A DNA stretch of 64,000 nucleotides, from the IMG/VR virus record IMGVR_UViG_3300035557_000069, one strand, 5' to 3'. Below are positions 16,742 to 57,866 of the stretch, piece after piece; the first letter of the stretch is position 1; every line of letters begins with the position of its first letter. The stretch is from a virus. The notes below the pieces were generated by a model that saw only the letters and a program-made list of their open reading frames with translations, did not search any database and was not told the DNA's origin. A program made the translations under genes and the position numbers.

Positions 16742-16748
16742 CTAAATA
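16742..16748 (+). promoter_or_regulatory. Late-promoter-like motif CTAAATA, 30 nt upstream of the plus-strand gene at 16778.
   Basis: It resembles the T4 late -10 TATAAATA. It forms a perfect inverted pair with the minus-strand copy at 16764-16770 inside a 49-bp divergent intergenic region. Confidence 0.35.
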
Positions 16749-16763
16749 GATAGAGTTCTACTA

Positions 16764-16770
16764 TATTTAG
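16764..16770 (-). promoter_or_regulatory. Late-promoter-like motif CTAAATA on the minus strand, 36 nt upstream of the leftward structural operon that starts at 16728.
   Basis: Plus strand reads TATTTAG. Mirror partner of 16742-16748. Confidence 0.35.
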
Positions 16771-24124: not shown

Positions 24125-24722
24125 TTCCACTCCTTTCTTTCAGGACTCGCCTGAATTTTTGTTCATCAATCACGATGAAGGACTGGAGTTTCTTGATTTT
24201 CAGAAACTCTTTCTTCCAAAGAGGCAGTCCTTCCATCCACAACGGTATGAAGTTCATTAACCTATCAAGTATGGCGACCGTTTCAATATGTATCTTACCA
24301 CTGAGGGTAAGCTGAAATAAGGTTGGAACGCCGTTGACTTCAAATAAATCTTTGAACTCTCTGTTGTGGTCTTCACAATGTATATTTAGATAAACTATAT
24401 CATCTGAAAAGGTCTTCGTCAAGCTTTGTCTAATTTTCTGCCACTTGTTATGAAGACTGAATGCCCGGTCAATATCATTAAACGGATAGTCATTACCATA
24501 GGCAAAGTTGGCGACTAGAACACTAGCGACTTGTTGGGGATTGTCACACTTCTTTCCGAATGCGGCAATAAGAGATTTGTCATTGCGCTTCTCCAACTGC
24601 TCTTTATTGGCGTTCTTAAACTTCCCGTTGCCCTTCACCGCATCGAAGGACACAGAAGAGAAATGTGCCTTCAATGCCATATAAAGCTGGAGTGTTTTAA
24701 CGGGGTCGGTGGGCATTCTCAT
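24117..24722 (-). CDS. gp59: gp59, loader of the gp41 replicative helicase, 201 aa.
   Basis: MRMPTDPVKTLQLYMALKAHF, LVANFAYG and KIHIETVAILDRLMNFI resemble T4 gp59 (LRMP..KSVYKLYLMIKQH, LVANQDAW, IISFETFILLDSFLNII). Adjacent to gene 32, as in T4. Confidence 0.8.
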   Translation of the reverse strand: MRMPTDPVKTLQLYMALKAHFSSVSFDAVKGNGKFKNANKEQLEKRNDKSLIAAFGKKCDNPQQVASVLVANFAYGNDYPFNDIDRAFSLHNKWQKIRQSLTKTFSDDIVYLNIHCEDHNREFKDLFEVNGVPTLFQLTLSGKIHIETVAILDRLMNFIPLWMEGLPLWKKEFLKIKKLQSFIVIDEQKFRRVLKERSGNE

Positions 24723-25701: not shown

Positions 25702-26295
25702 TTAATTTAGGTCCTTGATGTGGTCAATGATACCGTAAGCCTTCGCTTCCTTCGGTGTCAAGTAAACATCGGTAGGAGGCAGAAGGATTTCACGGATTTT
25801 CTTTTCGTCCAAGCCAGTGCATTTCTTGTAATGCTCAATGACTTTTCTATCGGTAAGCTGAAACTCTTTCATAACTGCCAGCAGTTCGTGGTGCTTGCCG
25901 ATGGAGCCACCTGAGTATTGATGGGACATAATGGTGGTGTTATTAGTGCAGAAACGCCTGCCTTTAGAACCAGACATAACAATCATTGTACCAGCAGAAG
26001 CGATTTCACCCAGACCCACGGTGCTGATGGGGATATTGGAGCCGCGCATAATGTCAATGAGTGCCCAAGCCGCGGAGAGGAGCCCACCCGGACTACAGAC
26101 CAAGAGAGTCAGTGTTTCTGGTTTCTCTTCCGCAAAGTTTGCTTCGATGATCCACTCAATCGTGGGTTTTACCGTGTCATAATTTATTTCATCCATCAAC
26201 AGCGAGTAAGACTGCCCCGAGGGCTGAACGTTGAACATCTTTGCTATGTTTCCGAACATATGTCCAGATGATTTTGGTCGAATAGATTTGGTCAT
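25702..26295 (-). CDS. clpP: ClpP-like serine protease subunit, 197 aa.
   Basis: Catalytic-triad context: GEIASAGT (Ser), MSHQYSGG (His; compare MIHQPLGG) and EAKAYGIID (Asp region). Length is typical of ClpP. Confidence 0.7.
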   Translation of the reverse strand: MTKSIRPKSSGHMFGNIAKMFNVQPSGQSYSLLMDEINYDTVKPTIEWIIEANFAEEKPETLTLLVCSPGGLLSAAWALIDIMRGSNIPISTVGLGEIASAGTMIVMSGSKGRRFCTNNTTIMSHQYSGGSIGKHHELLAVMKEFQLTDRKVIEHYKKCTGLDEKKIREILLPPTDVYLTPKEAKAYGIIDHIKDLN

Positions 26296-30680: not shown

Positions 30681-31037
30681 TTATTTAGCTTTCCGACCCG
30701 CTAAGGACTTCTGATGATTGAGCAGGCGCAACGCATTCTTACGCTCACGGTTCTCCTTGGCAGCGTCAATATACTTCTGCTGTACTTCCGCGGGGATACG
30801 GTCACGAAGCTTGACCTTGGGACGAACCTTGCGGAGTGCTTTGCGAAGAAACGCCTGCCCTGACCCCGGACCGTTGATGGCTTCCACATACTCCATCATC
30901 TGGGCGAGTGCCGTGATATCTTCGTCATTATCATAGACGTTCTTCAACTCAACTTCGCCTGTGGTGATACCAGCCTCGGCAAGTTCTTGGGCCAGCACCT
31001 CATCCGTTGTTACGATTTTCATTTCTTGGTCTTGCAT
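30681..31037 (-). CDS. Hypothetical protein, 118 aa.
   Basis: ORF track. Confidence 0.4.
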   Translation of the reverse strand: MQDQEMKIVTTDEVLAQELAEAGITTGEVELKNVYDNDEDITALAQMMEYVEAINGPGSGQAFLRKALRKVRPKVKLRDRIPAEVQQKYIDAAKENRERKNALRLLNHQKSLAGRKAK

Positions 31038-35154: not shown

Positions 35155-35436
35155 TTATTTTCTTGTGCTGTACATATTATTTAGGAACTTTTCAGTCTGT
35201 GAAATATAACGTTGTTGATCCTCAGTGAGAGGTGGATTGCTGGCTTTCAAGCGAGTCAAACAAAACAAGGCACCGTTCATCTGCTGAAACACGAAGTTTG
35301 TGCCGTTGTCGCGAAACTGGTTGAATCTTTTCAACAGAACACCATCAGGAACACCCGCTGTAGCAAGTTTCAGGATAGTCTGCTCCGCGTTGTATTCTGG
35401 TTTCTTTGTGTTAAAATCAAACGACAGTTGTTCCAT
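35155..35436 (-). CDS. Hypothetical protein, 93 aa.
   Basis: ORF track. Confidence 0.4.
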   Translation of the reverse strand: MEQLSFDFNTKKPEYNAEQTILKLATAGVPDGVLLKRFNQFRDNGTNFVFQQMNGALFCLTRLKASNPPLTEDQQRYISQTEKFLNNMYSTRK

Positions 35437-47080: not shown

Positions 47081-48008
47081 TTACTTCGTCACATCGATGA
47101 AGGGCATCGGAGCATTCCCACCCATATACGCGGGTAGCTTACCATCCCACTTCTCAATAGCTTTCAGTTGCACGTATTCCTTACCACCCTGCTTCTGAAT
47201 AGCCTCTGCCTGAATGCGAATCTGTTCTGCCTCTGCTTCTGCCATCGCTACCTTCTGCTCGGCTTCGACCTTCACACGCTCAAGGTCATTTCGTGCCTTC
47301 ATAGCTTGCTGTTCGGCAGTCTGCTTTGCTTCAATAGCGGCATTGAACGATTGTGAGAAGTGGAAGTTTGTAATCTGAATGTCTTCCACGACCACGTTAT
47401 ACTCAGAGATAGACCGACGGAGGGCAGCCGCAATCTCATTCTTTACAGCTTCACGCATGGAAAGCAATTGCTCAGCAGAATACTTCGCTACGACTGCCTT
47501 TACAACCTCTTGAATACGTGGAGCGATAATCTTGTTCTCAACGTCTGTACCGATGGTGGAATAAATCTCCGACAGTTTGTTTTCATTGAGGTGATAGTTC
47601 AACGCTACCTCAGTATCAACATTTTGAAGGTCTTTCGTGCCAGCGTTTCGCCGGCGCTTGTGCTTTCTGTGTCTTTACGTCAATGAACACAATGCGGTCA
47701 CGAATAGGTACTCGGAAGTTCAGACCAGAACTAGCAACATTGGAAACAGAGCCGAACGATAGAACGACCGCGCGTTGACCAGCATCAACAGTGTAGAAAC
47801 AGTTGGTTGCCACCATAATCAGCAATCCCGCAAGGATGCCGAAGAGTAGATAGCGAACCTTCAACGGAAACACGAACGGCGTCTCCGCTCGTTTGGAAGT
47901 GGGAAGAGCATTGTATTCTGCTTTCTCTTCAATATACGCCCACACATAAAAACCAATACCCAACAACACAAGCACAATCACGAGGATATTCACGACCAAA
48001 GCCAACAT
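47081..48008 (-). pseudogene. SPFH/band-7 (prohibitin/HflK/C-like) membrane-protein gene split by a +1 frameshift near 47640 into ORFs 47616-48008 (TM plus SPFH N-terminus) and 47081-47602 (SPFH C-terminus).
   Basis: The upstream ORF ends ...VDAGQRAVVLSFGSV...NFRVPIRDRIVFIDVKTQKAQAPAKRWHERPSKC*. The next frame continues with the canonical TKDLQNVDTEVALNYHL...RIQEV...NVVVEDIQITNFHFSQSFNAAIEAKQTAEQQA (SPFH core plus C-terminal coiled coil). Junction read directly from the sequence. Confidence 0.6.
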
Positions 48009-48842: not shown

Positions 48843-50228
48843 TTAGATAACAACCTCGTACTTGCTGACAGTGTTCAGCATAACATTACGTGGATTAGTA
48901 ATGTCGCCAGAAAGTACACCCTTAAGGACCTGCGGGCTGTAACCACCAATCAACGCGGTGTTACCGTCGTTGCGGAGAACAGGTAGATTGGAACCACGCC
49001 CGTTCACGTTCCAGAACACAACAGCCGGCATCTTGTAACCGGAAGCCTCATACTGCTTACGGATACGATGATAGGTCGAGTCATCCGCCCCATTGATACA
49101 ACCATCGAACTGCATATCCGAAACAATCAGGATAGCATCAGGTAGTTCCGACTGGTCAAGACGGTTCTTCACTGCCGTGTTGAGGATGGTAGCGAACACT
49201 GCATCCAGATTAGTGTTCATACCCCATTCCGAACGCTCAATATAGTGCATCTTCTGCCCGAGCGTGGTGTACTTGGAAATGTCCTTGAACTCAGGACGCT
49301 CGGAGAACGTCACGAACTGGTTCTTGAACTGACCCTCATTGCGTTCAGCACAATAGATACCCAGACCAACAGCAATATCGATTGCCTGAATAGACCCCGA
49401 GACCGGCGTGAACATGGAACCAGAAACGTCGATGACAGGCAGAATGTTACGTTGCTTGCCTTCGAACAGGTCAGGAAGAGCATTCCACTGAACATCCGCG
49501 GAAGCATTGTGTTGACGGAGACCACGGACGATATCGTGGGGGAATACAGCACCCGCCTTGATAGTGTCCTTACCTTCCTTCACACGATTGATGAAGGCAA
49601 CAAAACGCTCGTTGTCGTTACGTCCGAACGCCTTACCGTAGCGAGACATAGCCACAGAAGGGACCGAGGAATACTTGATAACATCCCAACGCTTCGCGCA
49701 CATGTCCTGCTCAACAGTCCTGGACAGACCAACAATCAGCTTACGGAAGCGAGACTCGGAGAGACCCATTTCCTTCGCCAGCTTGAAGAACGAAGCCTTA
49801 CGGCGTGGAACCCACTTTGCCGCCAGACCATTGCCTTCGCGAAGAGCGTTAGCATAGACACGGATCGCGTTAGCCTCACAAGGAGTACCAACGAGTTCCA
49901 GAACGTCATCCCAACGACCGTACTTCGGCACCAGGTCGATGTTGCGATTGACGTAGGTAGGATGGGTGTTAGCCAGATACTTGAGAGCCTTACGGAAGGC
50001 AGAACGCTCCCCCGCGCCGCCGCGGCAGTCACGACCCCAGAACACGACCTGCAGGGCAGTCTTCGCGTCTTCGGTCAGAGCCGAACGAAGGTCATTGGTG
50101 ATATCCTCACGACGGTACTGAACCATCTTGAAGAACAGATCCACGCATGGATCAAGGGAGGAACGATTGGTGACCGAACCGTTTTCGGTCAGAGTGGTGT
50201 TGTTGACGGCATTGAACAGAGTGGACAT
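48843..50228 (-). CDS. von Willebrand factor A domain protein with an ~250-aa helical N-terminal DUF2828-like region, 461 aa.
   Basis: MIDAS motif ILPVIDVSGSMFTP (DxSxS). The N-terminal VVFWGRDCRGGAGERSAFRKALKYLANTHP is typical of the DUF2828 family as I recall it. Confidence 0.65.
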   Translation of the reverse strand: MSTLFNAVNNTTLTENGSVTNRSSLDPCVDLFFKMVQYRREDITNDLRSALTEDAKTALQVVFWGRDCRGGAGERSAFRKALKYLANTHPTYVNRNIDLVPKYGRWDDVLELVGTPCEANAIRVYANALREGNGLAAKWVPRRKASFFKLAKEMGLSESRFRKLIVGLSRTVEQDMCAKRWDVIKYSSVPSVAMSRYGKAFGRNDNERFVAFINRVKEGKDTIKAGAVFPHDIVRGLRQHNASADVQWNALPDLFEGKQRNILPVIDVSGSMFTPVSGSIQAIDIAVGLGIYCAERNEGQFKNQFVTFSERPEFKDISKYTTLGQKMHYIERSEWGMNTNLDAVFATILNTAVKNRLDQSELPDAILIVSDMQFDGCINGADDSTYHRIRKQYEASGYKMPAVVFWNVNGRGSNLPVLRNDGNTALIGGYSPQVLKGVLSGDITNPRNVMLNTVSKYEVVI

Positions 50229-50938: not shown

Positions 50939-51645
50939 TAGATGACGCCCGGAGTAATGATACTCATAACTTCGGCAAGAGTACCCGTGGCATTCTGTCC
51001 GAACGCAACATATGCATAAGAACTGATGAAAGCCATTGCACTAGCATTAGCCGAGACCTCACCGCTTCCGGTAGTCTCAAACGTAGCAGTCAACGTGGCG
51101 ATATCCGCAACAAGAGCCTCGTGGAGTGGTGTAAAGTTCTCTAGAAGATAACCAACGTCCGGACCTTCACCAATTTCCGGCTGATTGGCAATCAACGCGG
51201 CAAACTCCGCCTCATAGCTTGAGTATATAGCCACTTCGCTGGCTTGATAGTCGGCATCGAAAGTTTTTGTACCCAGAAACATATAGGTACTTTGTTCAGC
51301 AACTGGCGGCAGACCATCTAGATTGTTAACCTCATTCTGAACATTAGTGGCGGATGACAGAAACATCAACTTGGTTTTATAAGCATCATTTGCCAACCAA
51401 GTATTGTTATAATGGTCAAGATATACTTCTTTTAACAATTCAAGGGCAGCCAGAACCTCAGCCTTCTCAACGGAGATATCAACAGGCGTCTCAATGGGTT
51501 CTGGATCACCAATCATCTCATAAACGTAAATCGTTTCATAAGTGGTATTAGCAACAGTCTTTAACGCATCAATCGCGGTAAAGATAGCTGTATACGGATT
51601 GGAGACTGGATTACCAGAGGCATCTATTTTATCAGAGTAAGACAT
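50938..51645 (-). CDS. Hypothetical protein co-transcribed upstream of the PAAR gene, 235 aa.
   Basis: AGGAG SD. Its stop overlaps the PAAR start. Confidence 0.45.
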   Translation of the reverse strand: MSYSDKIDASGNPVSNPYTAIFTAIDALKTVANTTYETIYVYEMIGDPEPIETPVDISVEKAEVLAALELLKEVYLDHYNNTWLANDAYKTKLMFLSSATNVQNEVNNLDGLPPVAEQSTYMFLGTKTFDADYQASEVAIYSSYEAEFAALIANQPEIGEGPDVGYLLENFTPLHEALVADIATLTATFETTGSGEVSANASAMAFISSYAYVAFGQNATGTLAEVMSIITPGVI

Positions 51646-51655
51646 GGAGACTCCT

Positions 51656-51831
51656 AAAAGGGTAACCCGTTTTTTTCTGTTTCCAAGACAAAACGGGTAA
51701 AATCTCAGTCGCGGTTAAGCGGCAAGGGCAAAGTCATACTCGCCTTTTATTGCTTTTGTCTGATATACGGCCATGACATTCCGGACTGTCCATCTTCGTA
51801 CTTGTTACCCAGTCGAAACCTTGGCACCCCC
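51656..51831 (-). ncRNA. ssrA: tmRNA (ssrA) 5' acceptor piece: acceptor 5' strand GGGGGUG (51831-51825), spacer CCAAG, D-loop analogue GUUUCGACUGGG (51819-51808), then a downstream region ending in an intrinsic terminator hairpin (51665-51698 plus a U-tract).
   Basis: Read from the sequence. Spacing and sequence match the E. coli tmRNA 5' end GGGGCUG-AUUCU-GGAUUCGACGGG. GGGGGUG pairs with the 3' strand CACCUCC at 51931-51937, with a G3·U wobble. The terminator is ACCCGUUUU...AAAACGGGU plus CUUUU. Confidence 0.55.
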
Positions 51832-51926
51832 ATCAACAGCATACTAGCAGAAGCCTCTAATCTCGCCCCAGTGGGCATAACACATGGCCTCAGTGCCCCG
51901 ATGTGTCCGGGATGATAGTATGCTCT

Positions 51927-52010
51927 TGGTGGAGGTGGCGGGATCGAACCCGCGTCCTAAGCACCTTTCGGTTGACTTCATACAGTCATATTGCTATTTA
52001 GTTATTACTA
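51927..52010 (-). ncRNA. ssrA: tmRNA (ssrA) 3' piece: T-arm, acceptor 3' strand and ACCA end (core 51927-51957), with short hairpins upstream. It lies 95 nt upstream of the 5' acceptor piece, so the gene looks circularly permuted (two-piece). The upstream boundary is uncertain.
   Basis: Minus strand reads GGAC-GCGGG-UUCGAU-CCCGC-CACCUCC-A-CCA. The E. coli tmRNA 3' end is GGACGCGGGUUCAACUCCCGCCAGCUCCACCA. A73 discriminator. No canonical tRNA 5' half lies within 100 nt upstream. Confidence 0.55.
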
Positions 52011-52328
52011 GAAACGTATTTCGTGATCAACAAGTGGTCCAAGATACTTGTTAATATCAGGATAAGTGCGAATAGTTTTCCACTCACACCACCTCGGTTT
52101 ATGATATCCTCGTTCCGCGTGTTCACTAGTATCAGAAAGATACTCAAACAGGGCGGCGACCATAAGAATCATAAACGGATGGGTCTTTCTATTCACATTA
52201 TGATGTTTATTAAACTGTGAAAGATACGCTCTTCCAGTATCACAATGAGCCACAGTTGTGCAGGACTTCACAACCTTTATGACTTTTTTCAAGTCCGAGT
52301 GTGCTTTACAGTTGTCATAGAAACTCAT
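52008..52328 (-). CDS. ORF of 106 aa that ends in three consecutive stops (UAG UAA UAA), ~50 nt before the tmRNA T-arm. It may be a protein gene and/or may contain the tmRNA tag reading frame.
   Basis: ORF track. SD AAGGAA upstream. The triple-stop reading is from the sequence. Confidence 0.3.
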   Translation of the reverse strand: MSFYDNCKAHSDLKKVIKVVKSCTTVAHCDTGRAYLSQFNKHHNVNRKTHPFMILMVAALFEYLSDTSEHAERGYHKPRWCEWKTIRTYPDINKYLGPLVDHEIRF

Positions 52329-52748: not shown

Positions 52749-52952
52749 TCATACGAACGTTTTATCCTGACAGTCTTGACAGATACCAGAAATCAAAAAC
52801 TCTTTACGGGAAATAGCGTCACGAAATTCCGTAGCTGATTTGCCGCAGAACATACAAGTGTTCTGGCTCAACGTCTCGGTGAGAGTTTTACCGAACGTCT
52901 CTTTGGCAAAACCATCGATGAATGCTTGCATTTCAGGCGTCTTCTGGCTCAT
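52749..52952 (-). CDS. Small Cys-containing protein, 67 aa from the Met at 52952 (MSQKTPEMQAF...).
   Basis: GAGGAG sits 8 nt upstream of the ATG at 52952. The track's longer N-terminal extension is low-complexity. CMFCGK ... CQDCQ. Confidence 0.4.
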   Translation of the reverse strand: MSQKTPEMQAFIDGFAKETFGKTLTETLSQNTCMFCGKSATEFRDAISRKEFLISGICQDCQDKTFV

Positions 52953-53111
52953 ACATATTCTCCTCTTCGATTTGAAAGGCTTCGCGTTTCTCTTTCCGGC
53001 GGGCAGTGCGGAACATCTCGCGGCGCTTTCCGGGCGGCGGGGCGCAACATGGACAGTTCCAACCACCAACACCCACTTTGAGAAACTTCAAGTATCGTTT
53101 TCGTTCCATAA

Positions 53112-53755: not shown

Positions 53756-55180
53756 TCACAAAATGGGTTTATTTGCGTTCTCCCGAATCTTCTCAAAGTT
53801 AGTCAAGGCAACAAACGGCTCATACAGTTTCTTCGTCATAGTGTAGACCAAGTTCAGGATAATCTTGTCTTCCCAATTCTGGTCATCCAGACGAACGGTT
53901 TTTGCCTTGCCTTCCTCGTCCTCCACGACAGTGAGGCGACCACGTTTGCTTTCTTTGCCCGGTGCTTCCTTGAAAACATCAATCCATTTACCATTGACAA
54001 GCAGGGCGCAACACTTCATGGCGAATCCGTAGGTGTCGCGGTTAACGTGTTGGAGCAGGGCACCACCCATCCCGAATGCTACGTTGTCAGCACTGAAACC
54101 TGCCCACTTGAGAGTAGCTAGGATTTCGTTGATGCTGGCTTTGTTGATGCCGTCTCCTTGAATAACGCGAACATAAGGAGGAAGCACTTTGTAACCCTTG
54201 CTGTTCCGAGTGGTACCAAACTTCTCTGCAAGGATTTCAACACAACGGCGTACGGTCGGAGCGGGGTCCCCCGAGTCCGGACGAATAACCAGAGTACCAC
54301 CAACTGCGCCGAGGGCTTCAACATCTGCCTTCAACTCGGTACCCCAGAGTTCACAAGCCTTGAAGATATCGTAGCTGTCCGAAACAACAGCCACAAGCTT
54401 GCCAGGACCGCCGTATTGTTTCAGCATATTGCGGTATGCTTCAACTTCGTTGTCTTTACCCCAACTGGTGATGGTGCTATGTTCAGCCGCAGGAATACTG
54501 AACCCTGCCATCTCTGCACCGTAGTAGTGATTGGCATACTGAACACCCTCAACAGTGTCCGAGCCGAGAAAGTTTACAAGGTGAGCCGCACCGCCGATAC
54601 CAGCAGTTTCACCCGAAGAGCAACCACGACCACCGAAGTCATGGAGTTTGAATGCGACTTGCTCTTGAACGTCACTGGTCCGCTCAAGGAAGTCTTTGAT
54701 GACTTTCTTGCAGTCATAACTTACAGTGGCGACCGAAGACGGGTACCAGATGGCGCGAAGTAGAGCCGTTTCGAGGAAGTTCACGATCCAAAAGCACACA
54801 GGATCAGTACAACATATCGTAAGTAAGCAATTACGATTTTTAATAACAGTTCCTTCAGGTAAAGCCTTGATAGTGACAGGCATATATCCTTTATACTCGG
54901 TTAGTATATACTCAAATCCTTGTTTATTGAAAGGAACCCCATGTGCTTTACAGAACAGTTCAGCCTCTTCAATATCAGCTTGAGTAATCGGGGTGAGTAG
55001 ATAGTCCTTGATGAACATCTGTAATCCAAAGAACACAAGATGATCTCCTCCTCTCGCTTCAATATACGATTGCATCCCCTCGGCTCCCGGAGGATATTGT
55101 CCTTGATGTTCAGTGTTATTGATACCGATTGAATGCGAGAATTTGTATGAATCGGTGGATAGTAGGATATTTCTTTTCAT
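53756..55180 (-). CDS. nadV: Nicotinamide phosphoribosyltransferase (NadV/Nampt), 474 aa.
   Basis: Length and motifs (STDSYKFSH N-terminus, IRPDSGDP, GDGI) are typical of Nampt. Confidence 0.85.
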   Translation of the reverse strand: MKRNILLSTDSYKFSHSIGINNTEHQGQYPPGAEGMQSYIEARGGDHLVFFGLQMFIKDYLLTPITQADIEEAELFCKAHGVPFNKQGFEYILTEYKGYMPVTIKALPEGTVIKNRNCLLTICCTDPVCFWIVNFLETALLRAIWYPSSVATVSYDCKKVIKDFLERTSDVQEQVAFKLHDFGGRGCSSGETAGIGGAAHLVNFLGSDTVEGVQYANHYYGAEMAGFSIPAAEHSTITSWGKDNEVEAYRNMLKQYGGPGKLVAVVSDSYDIFKACELWGTELKADVEALGAVGGTLVIRPDSGDPAPTVRRCVEILAEKFGTTRNSKGYKVLPPYVRVIQGDGINKASINEILATLKWAGFSADNVAFGMGGALLQHVNRDTYGFAMKCCALLVNGKWIDVFKEAPGKESKRGRLTVVEDEEGKAKTVRLDDQNWEDKIILNLVYTMTKKLYEPFVALTNFEKIRENANKPIL

Positions 55181-55223: not shown

Positions 55224-55754
55224 TCACTTATTGAATTGGTGTTTATAAGCCCGTTCTAACCAGATTTTCCATTGCTCTAAACTATGTTCTTTCTTGGAGT
55301 AGTTACAAGCAGAACAACATGGTACAACGTTATCTAGTGTGTAACCCTTGTTATTATCTACCCTATCAATACCGTTATACAGCAACGTATCATAGACCAT
55401 TCTCATTTCTGTGTTCGGTACTGTACCACAATAGTAGCATGACTGTTGCGTAATGTCAACCACATTTTGTAGTGTAAGTTCGAATAATATACCTCTCTTC
55501 TTGGCACCGCTTACGTAACGTCTGTACAACTTTCGTTTGAGACCCATTTGGTCGGGGAATCGACGATTTGGTCTAGGTGGTGAACAATCTTTACACGCCA
55601 GGCGTATTGAGTTACGTAAATCCGTAATATGTGCGTATCTAACACCACCACACTCACACTGACATACCCACTTCTTACGTTCATTATCAAAGTATGTCAG
55701 TGTGAGTTTTCCATATTTCTCGCCGCTTGTTGCTGAGTTATTTGTTCTTGCCAT
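55224..55754 (-). CDS. HNH family endonuclease, a probable free-standing homing endonuclease, 176 aa.
   Basis: N-terminal Cys4 zinc finger (CQCECGG ... CKDC). HNH core CYYCG ... GIDRVDNNKGYTLDNVVPCCSACNYSK. It sits between the two NAD-salvage genes. Confidence 0.7.
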   Translation of the reverse strand: MARTNNSATSGEKYGKLTLTYFDNERKKWVCQCECGGVRYAHITDLRNSIRLACKDCSPPRPNRRFPDQMGLKRKLYRRYVSGAKKRGILFELTLQNVVDITQQSCYYCGTVPNTEMRMVYDTLLYNGIDRVDNNKGYTLDNVVPCCSACNYSKKEHSLEQWKIWLERAYKHQFNK

Positions 55755-55958
55755 TTTGTGTCCGTTTCCAAATAAGTATTTTTATGATTACACTTATTTA
55801 GTAACAGTCACTTTTCTAGGCCTCACTCCTTTTCGGTAATCAGGCTCAACTGCCCACAAGCGGCGCCGGCGGCAACTTCGGCTTCTGTAGCGATAGCAAC
55901 AGCGAAGTCAAAACCGGCTTCTTTAAGTTCCTGAGCGATTTTCTCCATGGTATTCTCC

Positions 55959-56764: not shown

Positions 56765-57796
56765 TTAAATTCCTAGCAAGTCGGTAATGATATCGTAGTG
56801 ATCCTCAAAAAGACGGTCGGGCTCCAGTTCCGAGATGGGCAGCCAGAAAGCCTTCTCCGCATCATCGGCGCCTTTGACTCGCGGCAGGTCACCACAGTTC
56901 GGTAGTTCAATGAGGAATGCGTTAGTCACAGTACGTCCGCGAAGACTACGTTCAGGAGCATCATACACCTTCTGGCGCTTGATACAACCCCTCAGGACGG
57001 GCATGGGAACCTTAATCTTAGTCTCTTCACGAAGTTCCCGAAGCATACCATCAATAAGCGTTTCCTCTTGATTGAGAAAGCCACCCGGCAAGGCATACAG
57101 TCCTTTACCCGGTTCTGCCCGGCGCTTCACCAGCAGAATATGACCAGACTGAATGACAACAGCATCCGTGGTCAGAAATGTCACGGGATAAGGAGCAACA
57201 GCCCATGACTCTTTATATCCCTTGATGTAGAAATACTCCTGAACCAGTTGCTTGAACTCCGGTGTTTGAGTAAAGCCTTGGAGATACTGGAACACGGTCG
57301 GTGGTACAAACTTCTCAAAGTAATCAAACTTGAAGTATCTATCACGCAAGGCGGTGGCGTGAAGATGGCTCAGTTCTTCATCAAAGCCCGCGGGCGAGAT
57401 GAAATGCCACTGCGGGAACATATCGATGTACCAACTGGTGTAGTCTTCCTTGTTACCCGTGATAGCGATACTCCCAAAGTCCGGATCGCCGTTGTCGGAA
57501 AGGATGACTTGGTCCACCACGTTCTGTACATGCATGGCCCATTTCTGGTCATTGTAGGTGAAGTCGTTGAGATAACCATACAGAACGCGGCTATCGTTAT
57601 CAGTGACGCCTCGAATCATAGACACACGTTCACTAGCAGTGAACGGGTTCTTGATTGTACGAGGACGATTAGCCGTGCCGATTAAGACAATGACCTTCTC
57701 GGAGTACTTCAAGGCGTTTTCTAGAATAGCTTGATGGTTCTTGTGGAAGGGCTGAAATCGCCCGATGAATACGCAATACTTGTGTTTTTTAAGCAT
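56765..57796 (-). CDS. natV: Bifunctional NMN adenylyltransferase/Nudix hydrolase (NatV-like), 343 aa.
   Basis: N-terminal nucleotidyltransferase motif CVFIGRFQPFHKNHQ. C-terminal Nudix box GGFLNQEETLIDGMLRELREETKIK. Confidence 0.85.
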   Translation of the reverse strand: MLKKHKYCVFIGRFQPFHKNHQAILENALKYSEKVIVLIGTANRPRTIKNPFTASERVSMIRGVTDNDSRVLYGYLNDFTYNDQKWAMHVQNVVDQVILSDNGDPDFGSIAITGNKEDYTSWYIDMFPQWHFISPAGFDEELSHLHATALRDRYFKFDYFEKFVPPTVFQYLQGFTQTPEFKQLVQEYFYIKGYKESWAVAPYPVTFLTTDAVVIQSGHILLVKRRAEPGKGLYALPGGFLNQEETLIDGMLRELREETKIKVPMPVLRGCIKRQKVYDAPERSLRGRTVTNAFLIELPNCGDLPRVKGADDAEKAFWLPISELEPDRLFEDHYDIITDLLGI

Positions 57797-57845: not shown

Positions 57846-57866
57846 TTCTATTTAGTTTAAAATGAA

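What the first reader, a model, noticed from the sequence alone, without database searches (positions are those of the whole stretch)
51656..52010. Phage-encoded tmRNA (ssrA) that appears circularly permuted (two-piece)
On the minus strand a tmRNA-type T-arm, 3' acceptor strand and CCA (GGACGCGGGUUCGAUCCCGCCACCUCCACCA, 3' A at 51927) lies about 95 nt upstream of a matching tmRNA 5' module (GGGGGUG-CCAAG-GUUUCGACUGGG, 5' G at 51831). The order is inverted relative to a one-piece tmRNA. The two strands form a perfect 7-bp acceptor stem with a G3·U wobble and an A73 discriminator, the AlaRS identity set. The spacing between the acceptor strand and the UUCGAC D-loop analogue is identical to E. coli ssrA. 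The 5' piece ends at a hairpin plus U-tract terminator just before the next gene's SD. Two-piece tmRNAs are known from alpha-proteobacteria, some beta-proteobacteria and cyanobacteria. I am not aware of one described in a T4-type phage. The same genome also encodes a ClpP-like protease (25702-26295). ClpXP is the main protease for SsrA-tagged proteins, so a phage trans-translation or tag-degradation axis is worth considering.
Basis: partly seen in the sequence, partly recalled or inferred. Interest (0 to 1): 0.9.

Follow-up and report, generated by a model that had tools for sequence, protein, structure and literature searches.

The report
Two-piece tmRNA gene in T4-like phage
A T4-like phage carries a genuine circularly permuted (two-piece) tmRNA gene of the betaproteobacterial type, but such genes are already catalogued in phages, including T4-like ones, so this is a divergent new member of a known kind.

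Summary
On the minus strand, ARAGORN calls a permuted tmRNA (tag GEYDFALAA). Rfam tmRNA_permuted (RF04321) scores 104.6 bits against a gathering score of 47. The betaproteobacterial two-piece model RF01850 aligns end to end at 82.4 bits, just under its cutoff of 84. The acceptor stem (G3·U70, A73, encoded CCA), T-stem, inter-piece helix 2, pseudoknot PK1 and tag frame are all present. They are supported by compensatory changes against the only close relative (metagenomic locus L104) and across a 30-sequence viral alignment. A covarying helix closes the 95-nt intervening segment, which argues for a single precursor that is cut in two.

The novelty claim fails. Buchholz et al. 2022 counted 53 permuted tmRNAs in phages, and their table lists the T4-like Stenotrophomonas phages Mendera and Moby. 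I found 102 IMG/VR contigs with the same arrangement.

Unusual features: a Gly resume codon and a tag that lacks the usual AND head.

The ClpP "axis" is unsupported. The protease is a divergent ClpP-family member 26 kb away, with no co-occurrence pattern.

Verdict: new member of a known kind; modest interest.

The parts
51995..52001 (-). CTAAATA box, a promoter-like motif resembling the T4 late -10 element, 7 nt upstream of AUGACUG
   Evidence: There are 8 copies in the window. Five are intergenic (P=0.012), and seven lie 25-55 nt upstream of a start codon or directly before the tmRNA. The same box sits before the acceptor-piece fragment in L104 (411-417). The overall count is not enriched. 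Promoter function is inferred.
51927..51990 (-). Acceptor piece. Helix-2 5' strands: distal 51987-51983, proximal 51963-51957. T-arm 51953-51938 (5-bp stem, 6-nt loop UUCGAU). 3' acceptor strand 51937-51931, A73 at 51930, CCA at 51929-51927.
   Evidence: cmscan alignments and pair counts. The 5' end is inferred from the model start and the promoter-like box.
51832..51926 (-). Intervening segment of 95 nt, removed during processing. It is closed by a 9-bp trailer/leader helix (51924-51916 with 51846-51838).
   Evidence: Folds at -37.1 kcal/mol, z -2.6. The closing helix covaries across 30 viral sequences: 87.6% paired against 29-53% when slid, 9/9 pairs changed on both sides, 0/500 shuffles. 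Removal is inferred.
51805..51831 (-). 5' end of the coding piece. 5' acceptor strand GGGGGUG 51831-51825, D-loop analogue CCAAGGUUUCGA 51824-51813, proximal helix-2 3' strand 51812-51806.
   Evidence: Proximal helix 2 is 99.5% paired with 7/7 pairs covarying.
51784..51788 (-). Distal helix-2 3' strand CAGUC, which pairs with GACUG at 51987-51983 of the acceptor piece.
   Evidence: In L104 the pair is GGUAG/CUACC, so 3 of 5 pairs changed on both sides. In the 30-sequence alignment it is 97.5-100% paired.
51757..51783 (-). Pseudoknot PK1. P3 is CGG/CCG. P4 is UGUC/GACA, possibly extended by AU/AU across a bulge.
   Evidence: P3 is 87.8% paired with covariation, and P4 pairs are 61-85% paired. 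L104 keeps CGGU/ACCG and UGUUA/UGACA.
51715..51744 (-). Tag reading frame GGC GAG UAU GAC UUU GCC CUU GCC GCU UAA, encoding (A)GEYDFALAA-stop. The resume codon GGC is preceded by UAAAA.
   Evidence: ARAGORN. L104 encodes GENDFALAA with synonymous changes, and a 1-nt indel upstream removes the alternative GCA start frame. The resume codon aligns with GCA of the other tags.
51665..51698 (-). Conserved 3' hairpin ACCCGUUUU...AAAACGGGU, then UACCCUUUU (to 51656), the SD AGGAG (51655-51651) and the ATG of the next gene at 51645.
   Evidence: Fold. The stem sequence is identical in L104. It aligns to the first post-tag hairpin of RF01850. The terminator scan finds nothing.

Best explanation
This is a functional-looking, circularly permuted ssrA gene of the betaproteobacterial two-piece type, carried by a T4-like myovirus. 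Proposed mechanism: the region is transcribed as one precursor, probably from the CTAAATA box just upstream, and probably reading through into the downstream 235-aa and PAAR genes because no real terminator follows. The precursor folds so that the 3' acceptor strand pairs with the 5' acceptor strand, and the 95-nt intervening segment forms a helix-closed stem-loop. RNase P cuts 5' of G51831, and 3' trimming exposes the encoded CCA at 51927, releasing the intervening segment. The ~64-nt acceptor piece and the ~170-nt coding piece stay together through the acceptor stem and helix 2. The complex is charged with alanine (G3.U70, A73). With SmpB, presumably from the host, it enters stalled ribosomes and resumes translation at GGC, adding (A)GEYDFALAA. 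That tag ends in the ClpX-type ALAA degron. The likely benefit to the phage is keeping ribosomes free while host mRNA is being destroyed. Shown here: gene identity, all structural modules, covariation and tag conservation. Inferred: transcription unit, processing, charging, SmpB use and benefit.
For: ARAGORN calls tmRNA* with tag GEYDFALAA. RF04321 gives 104.6 bits against a gathering score of 47 over the full model. RF01850 beta_tmRNA aligns over positions 1-331 at 82.4 bits, E 3e-25. The window compared with its only close relative, L104, shows compensatory double changes: 3/5 pairs in distal helix 2, 2 pairs in proximal helix 2, 2/5 in the T-stem and 3/7 in the acceptor stem, while G3.U70, A73 and CCA are kept. 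The tag frame is kept with synonymous changes, and the stop is conserved. In the 30-sequence alignment, 85.8% of cells are paired against 39-53% for slid controls, 27/38 pairs show double changes, and 0/500 shuffles reach this. The precursor trailer/leader helix covaries at 9/9 pairs. The RNA coding piece is more conserved between the window and L104 (76.8-82.4%) than the flanking protein genes (about 63%). Phage genes lie on both sides. The arrangement tmRNA, 235-aa gene, PAAR gene is syntenic in L104.
Against: The T-loop is 6 nt rather than the canonical 7, and L104's T-loop (GGCGGUA) is non-canonical. RF01850 falls just under its curated cutoff. The middle helix-2 segment pairs poorly: 2/4 pairs in the window and 32-58% across the alignment. 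Thermodynamic co-folding of the two pieces recovers the acceptor stem and T-arm but not distal helix 2, and the interaction energy is no better than for shuffles (161/200 shuffles do at least as well). No expression, processing or charging data exist, and the host is unknown.
Confidence: 0.8

Rival explanations
1. It is a decaying or non-tagging tmRNA relic. It still resembles tmRNA but no longer supports trans-translation, and may act as a competitor of the host tmRNA, like the CDS-less tmRNA-like RNA of mycobacteriophage DS6A.
For: The T-loop is 6 nt in the window and non-canonical in L104. The RF01850 score is sub-threshold, whereas 14 other viral loci score 94-157 bits. The middle helix 2 is weak, and co-folding is unremarkable. 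DS6A precedent: PMC11915505.
Against: Ten compensatory changes keep every helix paired between two lineages whose neighbouring protein is only 43% identical. The tag ORF, its stop codon and the UAAAA resume context are conserved with synonymous substitutions. The RNA is more conserved than the flanking genes.
Confidence: 0.1
2. The phage uses a re-designed tag (Gly resume codon, no AND head, one residue shorter) to reroute tagged proteins. It would do this either by escaping the host's SspB-type adaptor or by feeding the phage's own ClpP-like protease.
For: The window and L104 encode GE[Y/N]DFALAA, whereas nearly all of the 59 other viral permuted tmRNAs called by ARAGORN encode tags that start with AND, most of them ANDxx[F/Y]ALAA. 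The ClpP-like protein keeps its Ser-His-Asp triad. A small ORF two genes upstream has zf-C4_ClpX as its best Pfam match, though that match is not significant.
Against: The ClpP-like gene is 26 kb away. It scores 72 bits against a cutoff of 308.6 for the ClpP equivalog, and its N-terminal 55 residues do not align. Its homologues are in unrelated phages, not in the tmRNA-bearing ones. No ClpX ATPase was found. The zinc-finger match is 13.4 bits against a cutoff of 27. The tag still ends in the standard ALAA degron.
Confidence: 0.07
3. It is a host ssrA fragment picked up at a prophage attachment site, or a misassembled piece of bacterial DNA, rather than a phage gene.
For: tmRNA genes are common integration sites for temperate elements (PMC11915505, PMC9004378). 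Some of the 102 IMG/VR hits may be of this kind.
Against: The gene is complete rather than a 3' fragment. It lies inside a T4-like lytic-type genome with phage genes on both sides. The synteny is repeated in an independent metagenomic contig. No integrase was seen among the neighbouring ORFs I scanned.
Confidence: 0.02

Closest known systems
Betaproteobacterial two-piece tmRNA (Rfam RF01850 beta_tmRNA; described by Sharkady and Williams 2004, as cited in PMC9004378)
   Same: The gene order is acceptor piece, intervening segment, coding piece. It aligns over the full RF01850 model, including helix 2, PK1 stem P3, the tag and the first post-tag hairpin. It has the same 7-nt spacing between GGGGGUG and UUCGAC and the same FALAA tag end.
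   Different: It scores 82.4 bits, below the gathering score of 84. The intervening segment is 95 nt, against about 29 nt in the model consensus. The T-loop is 6 nt. The resume codon is Gly and the tag lacks AND. The second (terminator) hairpin of the model is not formed. It sits in a phage rather than a bacterium.
Permuted tmRNAs of T4-like Stenotrophomonas phages (Marzo, Mendera, Moby, IME-SM1; genus Menderavirus)
   Same: These are T4-like myoviruses with an ARAGORN-permuted tmRNA that matches the beta-type model: Marzo scores 94.6 bits on RF01850 and 119 on RF04321. The tRNA-like domain is 84.5% identical over about 70 nt. They are already listed as 'Permuted' in Buchholz 2022 Table S1.
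   Different: In those phages the tmRNA sits inside a tRNA gene cluster, whereas the window has no tRNA gene at all. The tag differs (VAANDDSYTVRIAA). The genomes are not closely related to the window.
Two-piece tmRNAs of marine T4-like myophages (OM43 phage Melnitz, Pelagibacter phages Mosig and HTVC008M; Buchholz et al. 2022, PMC9004378)
   Same: These phages are the closest cultured relatives of the window phage by gp6 (35-37% identity). Melnitz carries a permuted ssrA with a proposed role in maintaining hijacked translation, and 17 of 47 Melnitz-like contigs carry one too.
   Different: Those genes are alphaproteobacterial-type, and in Melnitz and Mosig they are accompanied by a glutamine riboswitch. 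The window's gene is beta-type, and Rfam finds no riboswitch in the window.
Caulobacter crescentus two-piece tmRNA (Keiler, Shapiro and Williams 2000, as cited in PMC9004378)
   Same: It is the experimental paradigm for this gene form: a single precursor is processed into an acceptor RNA and a coding RNA that are held together by base pairing and are active in tagging.
   Different: It belongs to the alpha-type lineage and is bacterial. Processing has been shown there and is only inferred here.

Membership tests
tmRNA (ssrA), general | tRNA-Ala-like acceptor stem with G3.U70, discriminator A73 and 3' CCA | tested here: met
   GGGGGUG/CACCUCC-A-CCA. G3.U70, A73 and CCA are kept in L104 although positions 4-6 changed on both sides.
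tmRNA (ssrA), general | T-arm with a 5-bp stem and a canonical 7-nt T-loop (UUCRANN) | tested here: inconclusive
   The stem GCGGG/CCCGC is present and covaries. The loop is UUCGAU, 6 nt, where 28 of 29 relatives have 7. Whether a 6-nt loop is functional cannot be judged from sequence.
tmRNA (ssrA), general | Helix 2 linking the tRNA-like domain to the mRNA-like domain | tested here: met
   The proximal 7 bp and distal 5 bp pair in the window and covary (99.5% and 97.5-100% paired; compensatory changes against L104). The middle segment is poor (2/4 pairs).
tmRNA (ssrA), general | Pseudoknot PK1 upstream of the resume codon | tested here: met
   P3 is CGG/CCG and P4 is UGUC/GACA. P3 is 87.8% paired with covariation and P4 pairs are 61-85% paired. 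PK1 is retained in L104.
tmRNA (ssrA), general | Internal tag ORF without a start codon or SD, ending in a hydrophobic degron plus a stop codon | tested here: met
   GGC...GCU UAA encodes GEYDFALAA. It is conserved as GENDFALAA with synonymous changes in L104. The U(-5)A(-4) context matches E. coli ssrA.
tmRNA (ssrA), general | Alanylation, SmpB binding and trans-translation activity | not testable with these tools
The rest of the genome and the host are unknown.
Permuted (two-piece) tmRNA, Rfam RF04321 | Gene order is 3' tRNA-like half, then intervening segment, then 5' tRNA-like half and tag; score at or above the gathering score | tested here: met
   104.6 bits against 47, over model positions 1-213. 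ARAGORN flags it as tmRNA*.
Permuted (two-piece) tmRNA, Rfam RF04321 | The precursor is cleaved into two RNAs that remain base-paired | not testable with these tools
   Indirect support only: a covarying trailer/leader helix closes the intervening segment, and the inter-piece helices covary.
Betaproteobacterial tmRNA, Rfam RF01850 | Score at or above the curated gathering score (84 bits) | tested here: not met
   82.4 bits, E 3e-25, full-length alignment; L104 scores 82.1. It resembles the beta type more than any other lineage but is a divergent outlier. Other viral loci score 94-157.
Intrinsic (rho-independent) terminator at the 3' end | G+C-rich hairpin immediately followed by a U-run | tested here: not met
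   The scan finds 0 sites. The hairpin 51698-51665 is followed by UACCCUUUU, so the U-run starts 5 nt after the stem.
   The triad is present and Pfam CLP_protease scores 99 bits. However, TIGR00493 scores 72 against 308.6, Clp_rel_HeadMat scores 56 against 120, and residues 1-54 do not align.

The most novel reading that the evidence does not exclude
This phage lineage (the window plus L104) has evolved its own variant of two-piece tmRNA. It has a Gly resume codon, a shortened tag lacking the conserved AND head (the part that the SspB adaptor binds in the E. coli tag), and aberrant T-loops, and it is co-transcribed with tail-tip genes. Ribosome rescue and tagging during infection would then be uncoupled from the host adaptor, or coupled to phage factors (the ClpP-like protease, or a ClpX-zinc-finger-like small protein). 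In addition, the gene is a target of a homing endonuclease, as seen in L104.
Probability: 0.12. Interest if true: 0.55.

Novelty: new member of a known kind. Interest (0 to 1): 0.3.

Why it matters
What tmRNAs do for phages is still unknown. This example adds a divergent beta-type two-piece gene in a T4-like phage from a poorly sampled lineage, with only one relative found in any collection searched. Its unusual tag and T-loop could be used to ask which tmRNA features a phage actually needs. On its own it does not change the picture: permuted tmRNAs are already documented in dozens of phages, including T4-like ones. The practical value lies in correct annotation, and in a clean pair of sequences (window and L104) showing compensatory evolution and a homing-endonuclease insertion in a phage tmRNA gene.

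Tried and rejected
(1) An exact-pattern scan of IMG/VR with the full T-arm plus permuted arrangement found 0 hits. Loosening it to the acceptor strands gave 102 contigs, none a close relative of the whole gene.
(2) Protein-anchored searches with the two flanking ORFs in IMG/VR found nothing. A search of 5.8 billion proteins found only the window's own protein and one relative. The exact look-up of the window's own protein failed.
(3) Tag-pattern scans of IMG/VR and of JGI metagenomes found 0 hits. A profile-based metagenome scan also found none.
(4) The single genome-contig scan was wasted on an 18-mer that was too short. The 120 hits were essentially all chance and none was a tmRNA relative, so the bacterial donor lineage could not be identified.
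(5) Co-folding the two pieces did not discriminate the window from shuffled controls, so comparative evidence was used instead.
(6) The alternative longer tag AIKGEYDFALAA (resume at GCA) was rejected, because a 1-nt indel in L104 destroys that frame.
(7) A group I intron explanation for the L104 insertion was rejected. Rfam finds no intron, and no T-stem 3' half follows the insertion.
(8) A sigma-70 promoter was rejected: none was found on the minus strand.
(9) The Sharkady and Williams 2004 paper is not held in the library.
(10) The neighbouring PHROG 'RNA-binding protein' (DUF2828/DUF7788) has no relative among solved structures, so a Ro/Y-RNA-type link was not pursued.

Full report
**Observation**

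The sequence GGACGCGGGUUCGAUCCCGCCACCUCCACCA ends with its 3' A at 51927. Ninety-five nucleotides further on, GGGGGUGCCAAGGUUUCGACUGGG begins at 51831. The two acceptor strands form seven pairs, with G3.U70 and discriminator A73.

ARAGORN reports a single RNA gene in the whole 64-kb window: a permuted tmRNA (tmRNA*) at 51624-52018 with tag GEYDFALAA. Rfam's tmRNA_permuted model RF04321 matches 51987-51715 over its full length at 104.6 bits, against a gathering score of 47 (E 2.5e-19). So the feature is real and far beyond chance.

**Which kind of tmRNA**

With permissive thresholds, the betaproteobacterial two-piece model RF01850 aligns end to end (model 1-331, window 52043-51645) at 82.4 bits, E 3e-25. 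That is just under its curated cutoff of 84. No alpha, cyano or standard tmRNA match was listed; lower-scoring overlapping matches from the same Rfam clan are not reported. The gene is therefore beta-type but a divergent outlier: fourteen other viral loci, including phage Marzo, score 94-157 bits on the same model.

**Genome context**

The window encodes T4-type baseplate proteins (gp5-like hub/lysozyme, gp6, gp7-like), a DNA ligase, NAMPT and a PAAR protein. G+C content is 42-48%.

- By gp6, the closest cultured phages are Pelagibacter phages HTVC008M and Mosig and the OM43 phage Melnitz, at 35-37% identity.
- No nucleotide-level relative exists in the INPHARED collection.
- The tmRNA gene lies between an unknown 106-aa ORF (52328-52008) and an unknown 235-aa ORF (51645-50938), which is followed by the PAAR gene. 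Phage genes lie on both sides.

**Anatomy and comparative support**

Only one close relative could be found anywhere: L104, a 3.9-kb ENA metagenome contig. Its homologue of the 235-aa protein is 43% identical and is also followed by a PAAR gene. L104 carries a permuted tmRNA in the same position (RF04321 100.6 bits, RF01850 82.1 bits).

Comparing the two model-based alignments helix by helix:

| Element | Window | L104 | Pairs changed on both sides |
|---|---|---|---|
| Distal helix 2 | GACUG/CAGUC | GGUAG/CUACC | 3 of 5 |
| Proximal helix 2 | UGC/GUA, UAG/CUG | UAG/UUG, CAA/UUG | 2 |
| T-stem | GCGGG/CCCGC | CUGGG/CCCAG | 2 of 5 |
| Acceptor stem | GGGGGUG/CACCUCC | GGGCUGG/CCGGUCC | 3 of 7 |

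G3.U70, A73 and CCA are retained in both. PK1 is also kept: P3 is CGG/CCG in the window and CGGU/ACCG in L104, and P4 is UGUC/GACA and UGUUA/UGACA.

The tag frame reads GGC GAG UAU GAC UUU GCC CUU GCC GCU UAA in the window and GGC GAA AAU GAC UUU GCC CUA GCC GCU UAA in L104. That is two synonymous changes and one replacement, with the stop conserved. A 1-nt indel just upstream in L104 eliminates the alternative in-frame GCA start. This fixes the resume codon at GGC. It is preceded by UAAAA, the same U(-5)A(-4) context as in E. coli ssrA, whose sequence I verified against 5,426 genomes.

I also aligned 30 viral permuted tmRNAs, including the window, L104 and Marzo, and counted the named structure on that alignment:

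- 85.8% of cells are paired, against 39-53% when partners are slid by 1-3 columns.
- 27 of 38 pairs show changes on both sides, and 0 of 500 shuffles reach the observed values.
- The two inter-piece helix-2 segments are 97.5-100% and 99.5% paired, and all seven proximal pairs covary.
- The middle helix-2 segment is not supported (32-58% paired; 2 of 4 pairs in the window). This may partly reflect alignment quality.

Thermodynamic co-folding alone was not informative for the window. It recovered the acceptor stem and T-arm, but it preferred a local hairpin over distal helix 2. That hairpin is not conserved in L104.

**Precursor and expression**

The 95-nt intervening segment folds stably (-37.1 kcal/mol, z -2.6) with its ends paired as AGCAUACUA/UAGUAUGCU. 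Across the 30-sequence alignment, this trailer/leader helix is 87.6% paired, against 29-53% when slid. All nine pairs change on both sides, and 0 of 500 shuffles match it. Neither Rfam model marks this helix in its consensus structure line. It is good indirect evidence that the two halves are made as one precursor and then separated. L104 lacks it, because its linker is only UUAU.

Upstream, a CTAAATA box sits 7 nt before AUGACUG. The total count of this motif in the window is not enriched (8 observed, 7.5 expected). However, five of the eight copies are intergenic (P=0.012), and seven precede a start codon by 25-55 nt or precede the tmRNA. The same box precedes the acceptor-piece fragment in L104. 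It resembles the T4 late -10 element TATAAATA. I treat promoter function as an inference and assign no temporal class, because the box also precedes NAD-salvage and endonuclease genes.

Downstream, a hairpin with a 9-bp stem (51698-51665) is conserved in L104 and aligns to the first post-tag hairpin of RF01850. It is followed by UACCCUUUU, and the terminator scan finds nothing. Read-through into the 235-aa and PAAR genes is therefore plausible.

**Deviations from the norm**

1. The T-loop is UUCGAU, 6 nt. Twenty-eight of the other 29 aligned sequences have a 7-nt UUCRAYU loop, and L104 has a non-canonical GGCGGUA.
2. ARAGORN called a permuted tmRNA in 59 of 60 further viral loci, and nearly all of those tags start with AND, most as ANDxx[F/Y]ALAA. 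The window and L104 start with Gly, lack the AND head and are one residue shorter.
3. The intervening segment is long compared with the roughly 29 nt of the RF01850 consensus.
4. The acceptor-to-UUCGAC spacing is 7 nt, as in the other beta-type sequences, and not the 8 nt of E. coli.

**Novelty**

Two-piece tmRNAs in phages are already documented.

- Buchholz et al. 2022 (PMC9004378) found 133 unique tmRNAs in 402 phage genomes. ARAGORN called 53 of them two-piece, and 17 of 47 Melnitz-like contigs carried one.
- Their Table S1 lists Stenotrophomonas phages Mendera and Moby and Xanthomonas phage XacN1 as 'Permuted'. Mendera is described as T4-like (PMC6940306).
- GenBank annotates the homologous gene of phage Marzo as tmRNA. 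I confirmed that it is permuted and beta-type.
- The 2025 tmRNA database holds 79 bacteriophage sequences (PMC11915505).
- My own scan found 102 IMG/VR contigs with the same permuted arrangement and an identical acceptor stem. Several of those contigs are 160-175 kb long or have adjacent tRNA arrays.

The finding is therefore a new, divergent member of a known kind.

**The ClpP idea**

The 197-aa product of 25702-26295 is a ClpP-family serine protease (Pfam CLP_protease, 99 bits), with Ser, His and Asp aligned to the catalytic triad of Coxiella ClpP 3q7h. However:

- It scores far below every curated cutoff: TIGR00493 72 against 308.6 bits, and the ClpP-related head-maturation model 56 against 120.
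- Its first ~55 residues do not align.
- It lies 26 kb from the tmRNA.
- Its closest homologues are in Synechococcus phage BUCT-ZZ01, Sinorhizobium phage Phosso and Ralstonia phage RsoM2USA, not in the tmRNA-bearing Stenotrophomonas or Xanthomonas phages.
- No ClpX or SmpB was detected in the window.

The axis remains speculation.

**Mechanism proposed**

- Shown: gene identity, all structural modules, covariation and tag conservation.
- Inferred from the Caulobacter paradigm and general tmRNA biology: one precursor; RNase P cleavage at G51831; 3' trimming to the encoded CCA; two RNAs held together by the acceptor stem and helix 2; alanylation; SmpB-dependent entry into stalled ribosomes; addition of (A)GEYDFALAA; and degradation through the ALAA end.
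- Likely benefit (also inferred): sustaining ribosome availability while host mRNA is being degraded.

**Verdict**

This is a new member of a known kind, with interest about 0.3.

Noticed in passing
L104 390-1320 (ENA ERZ27315067 k141_1380242): In the only close relative, a homing-endonuclease ORF (515-1159; phrog_655, E 1.4e-12) sits directly after a truncated copy of the acceptor piece that stops at the end of a canonical T-loop (...GGACGCGGGUUCGAUU, about 420-470). A second, complete but divergent tRNA-like domain follows, overlapping the ORF's 3' end. The window's acceptor piece is closer to the truncated fragment (78.7%) than to L104's complete copy (63.6%). Rfam finds no group I intron. 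It looks like a free-standing homing endonuclease that invaded the T-loop of a phage tmRNA gene, with replacement or duplication of the downstream half.
   Followed up: partly
window 51916-51924 with 51838-51846, and alignment A2 columns 90-98 with 181-189: A 9-bp helix between the trailer after CCA and the leader before G1 closes the intervening segment and covaries strongly in 30 viral beta-type permuted tmRNAs (9/9 pairs, 0/500 shuffles). The consensus structure lines of RF01850 and RF04321 do not mark it as paired.
   Followed up: yes
window 52749-53072 (-), likely start at the internal ATG (67 aa): This small C4 zinc-finger ORF lies two genes upstream of the tmRNA. Its best Pfam match is the ClpX zinc finger zf-C4_ClpX (13.4 bits against a cutoff of 27, E 0.073), and tblastn with the E. 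coli ClpX N-terminus gives E 0.19. Neither is significant. It also matches phrog_19722 (unknown function).
   Followed up: partly
window 25702-26295 (-): Divergent ClpP-family protease with the Ser-His-Asp triad intact but an N-terminal ~55 aa that does not align. Its closest homologues are in Synechococcus phage BUCT-ZZ01 (50% identity), the jumbo Sinorhizobium phage Phosso and Ralstonia phage RsoM2USA. It is unlikely to be the T4-type (gp21) prohead protease, and its role is unknown.
   Followed up: partly
window 48843-50228 (-): This 461-aa protein matches PHROG 850, annotated 'RNA-binding protein' (E 3e-139), and Pfam DUF2828 plus DUF7788. It lies about 1.4 kb downstream of the tmRNA on the same strand. 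No solved-structure relative was found by sequence. A functional link to the RNA gene was not examined.
   Followed up: no
window 16742-16770, 24383-24389, 30682-30688, 35178-35184, 51995-52001, 55795-55801, 57849-57855: The motif CTAAATA recurs 25-55 nt upstream of start codons, including a divergent back-to-back pair at 16742-16770. It is a candidate promoter box resembling the T4 late TATAAATA. Canonical TATAAATA occurs only twice in the window.
   Followed up: partly
window 53756-55180 (-) and 56765-57796 (-): An NAD salvage pair: nicotinamide phosphoribosyltransferase (NAMPT), and a cytidyltransferase-family protein with a NUDIX-family match and a weaker match to nicotinamide-nucleotide adenylyltransferase. 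They lie just upstream of the tmRNA region, with an endonuclease VII/HNH-like ORF (55224-55754) between them.
   Followed up: no
window 47120-47169, within the SPFH/Band-7 ORF 47081-47602 (-): This 50-nt stretch is 94% identical to jumbo Salmonella and Klebsiella phages (7t3, SE_PL, fENko-Kae01). It is the only megablast match of window 40000-64000 to any catalogued phage.
   Followed up: no
L104 1-18: The contig begins with CGTGTGCTCTTCCGATCT, which I recognise from memory as Illumina adapter sequence (not checked with any tool). The extreme 5' end of this public assembly is therefore probably an artefact.
   Followed up: no
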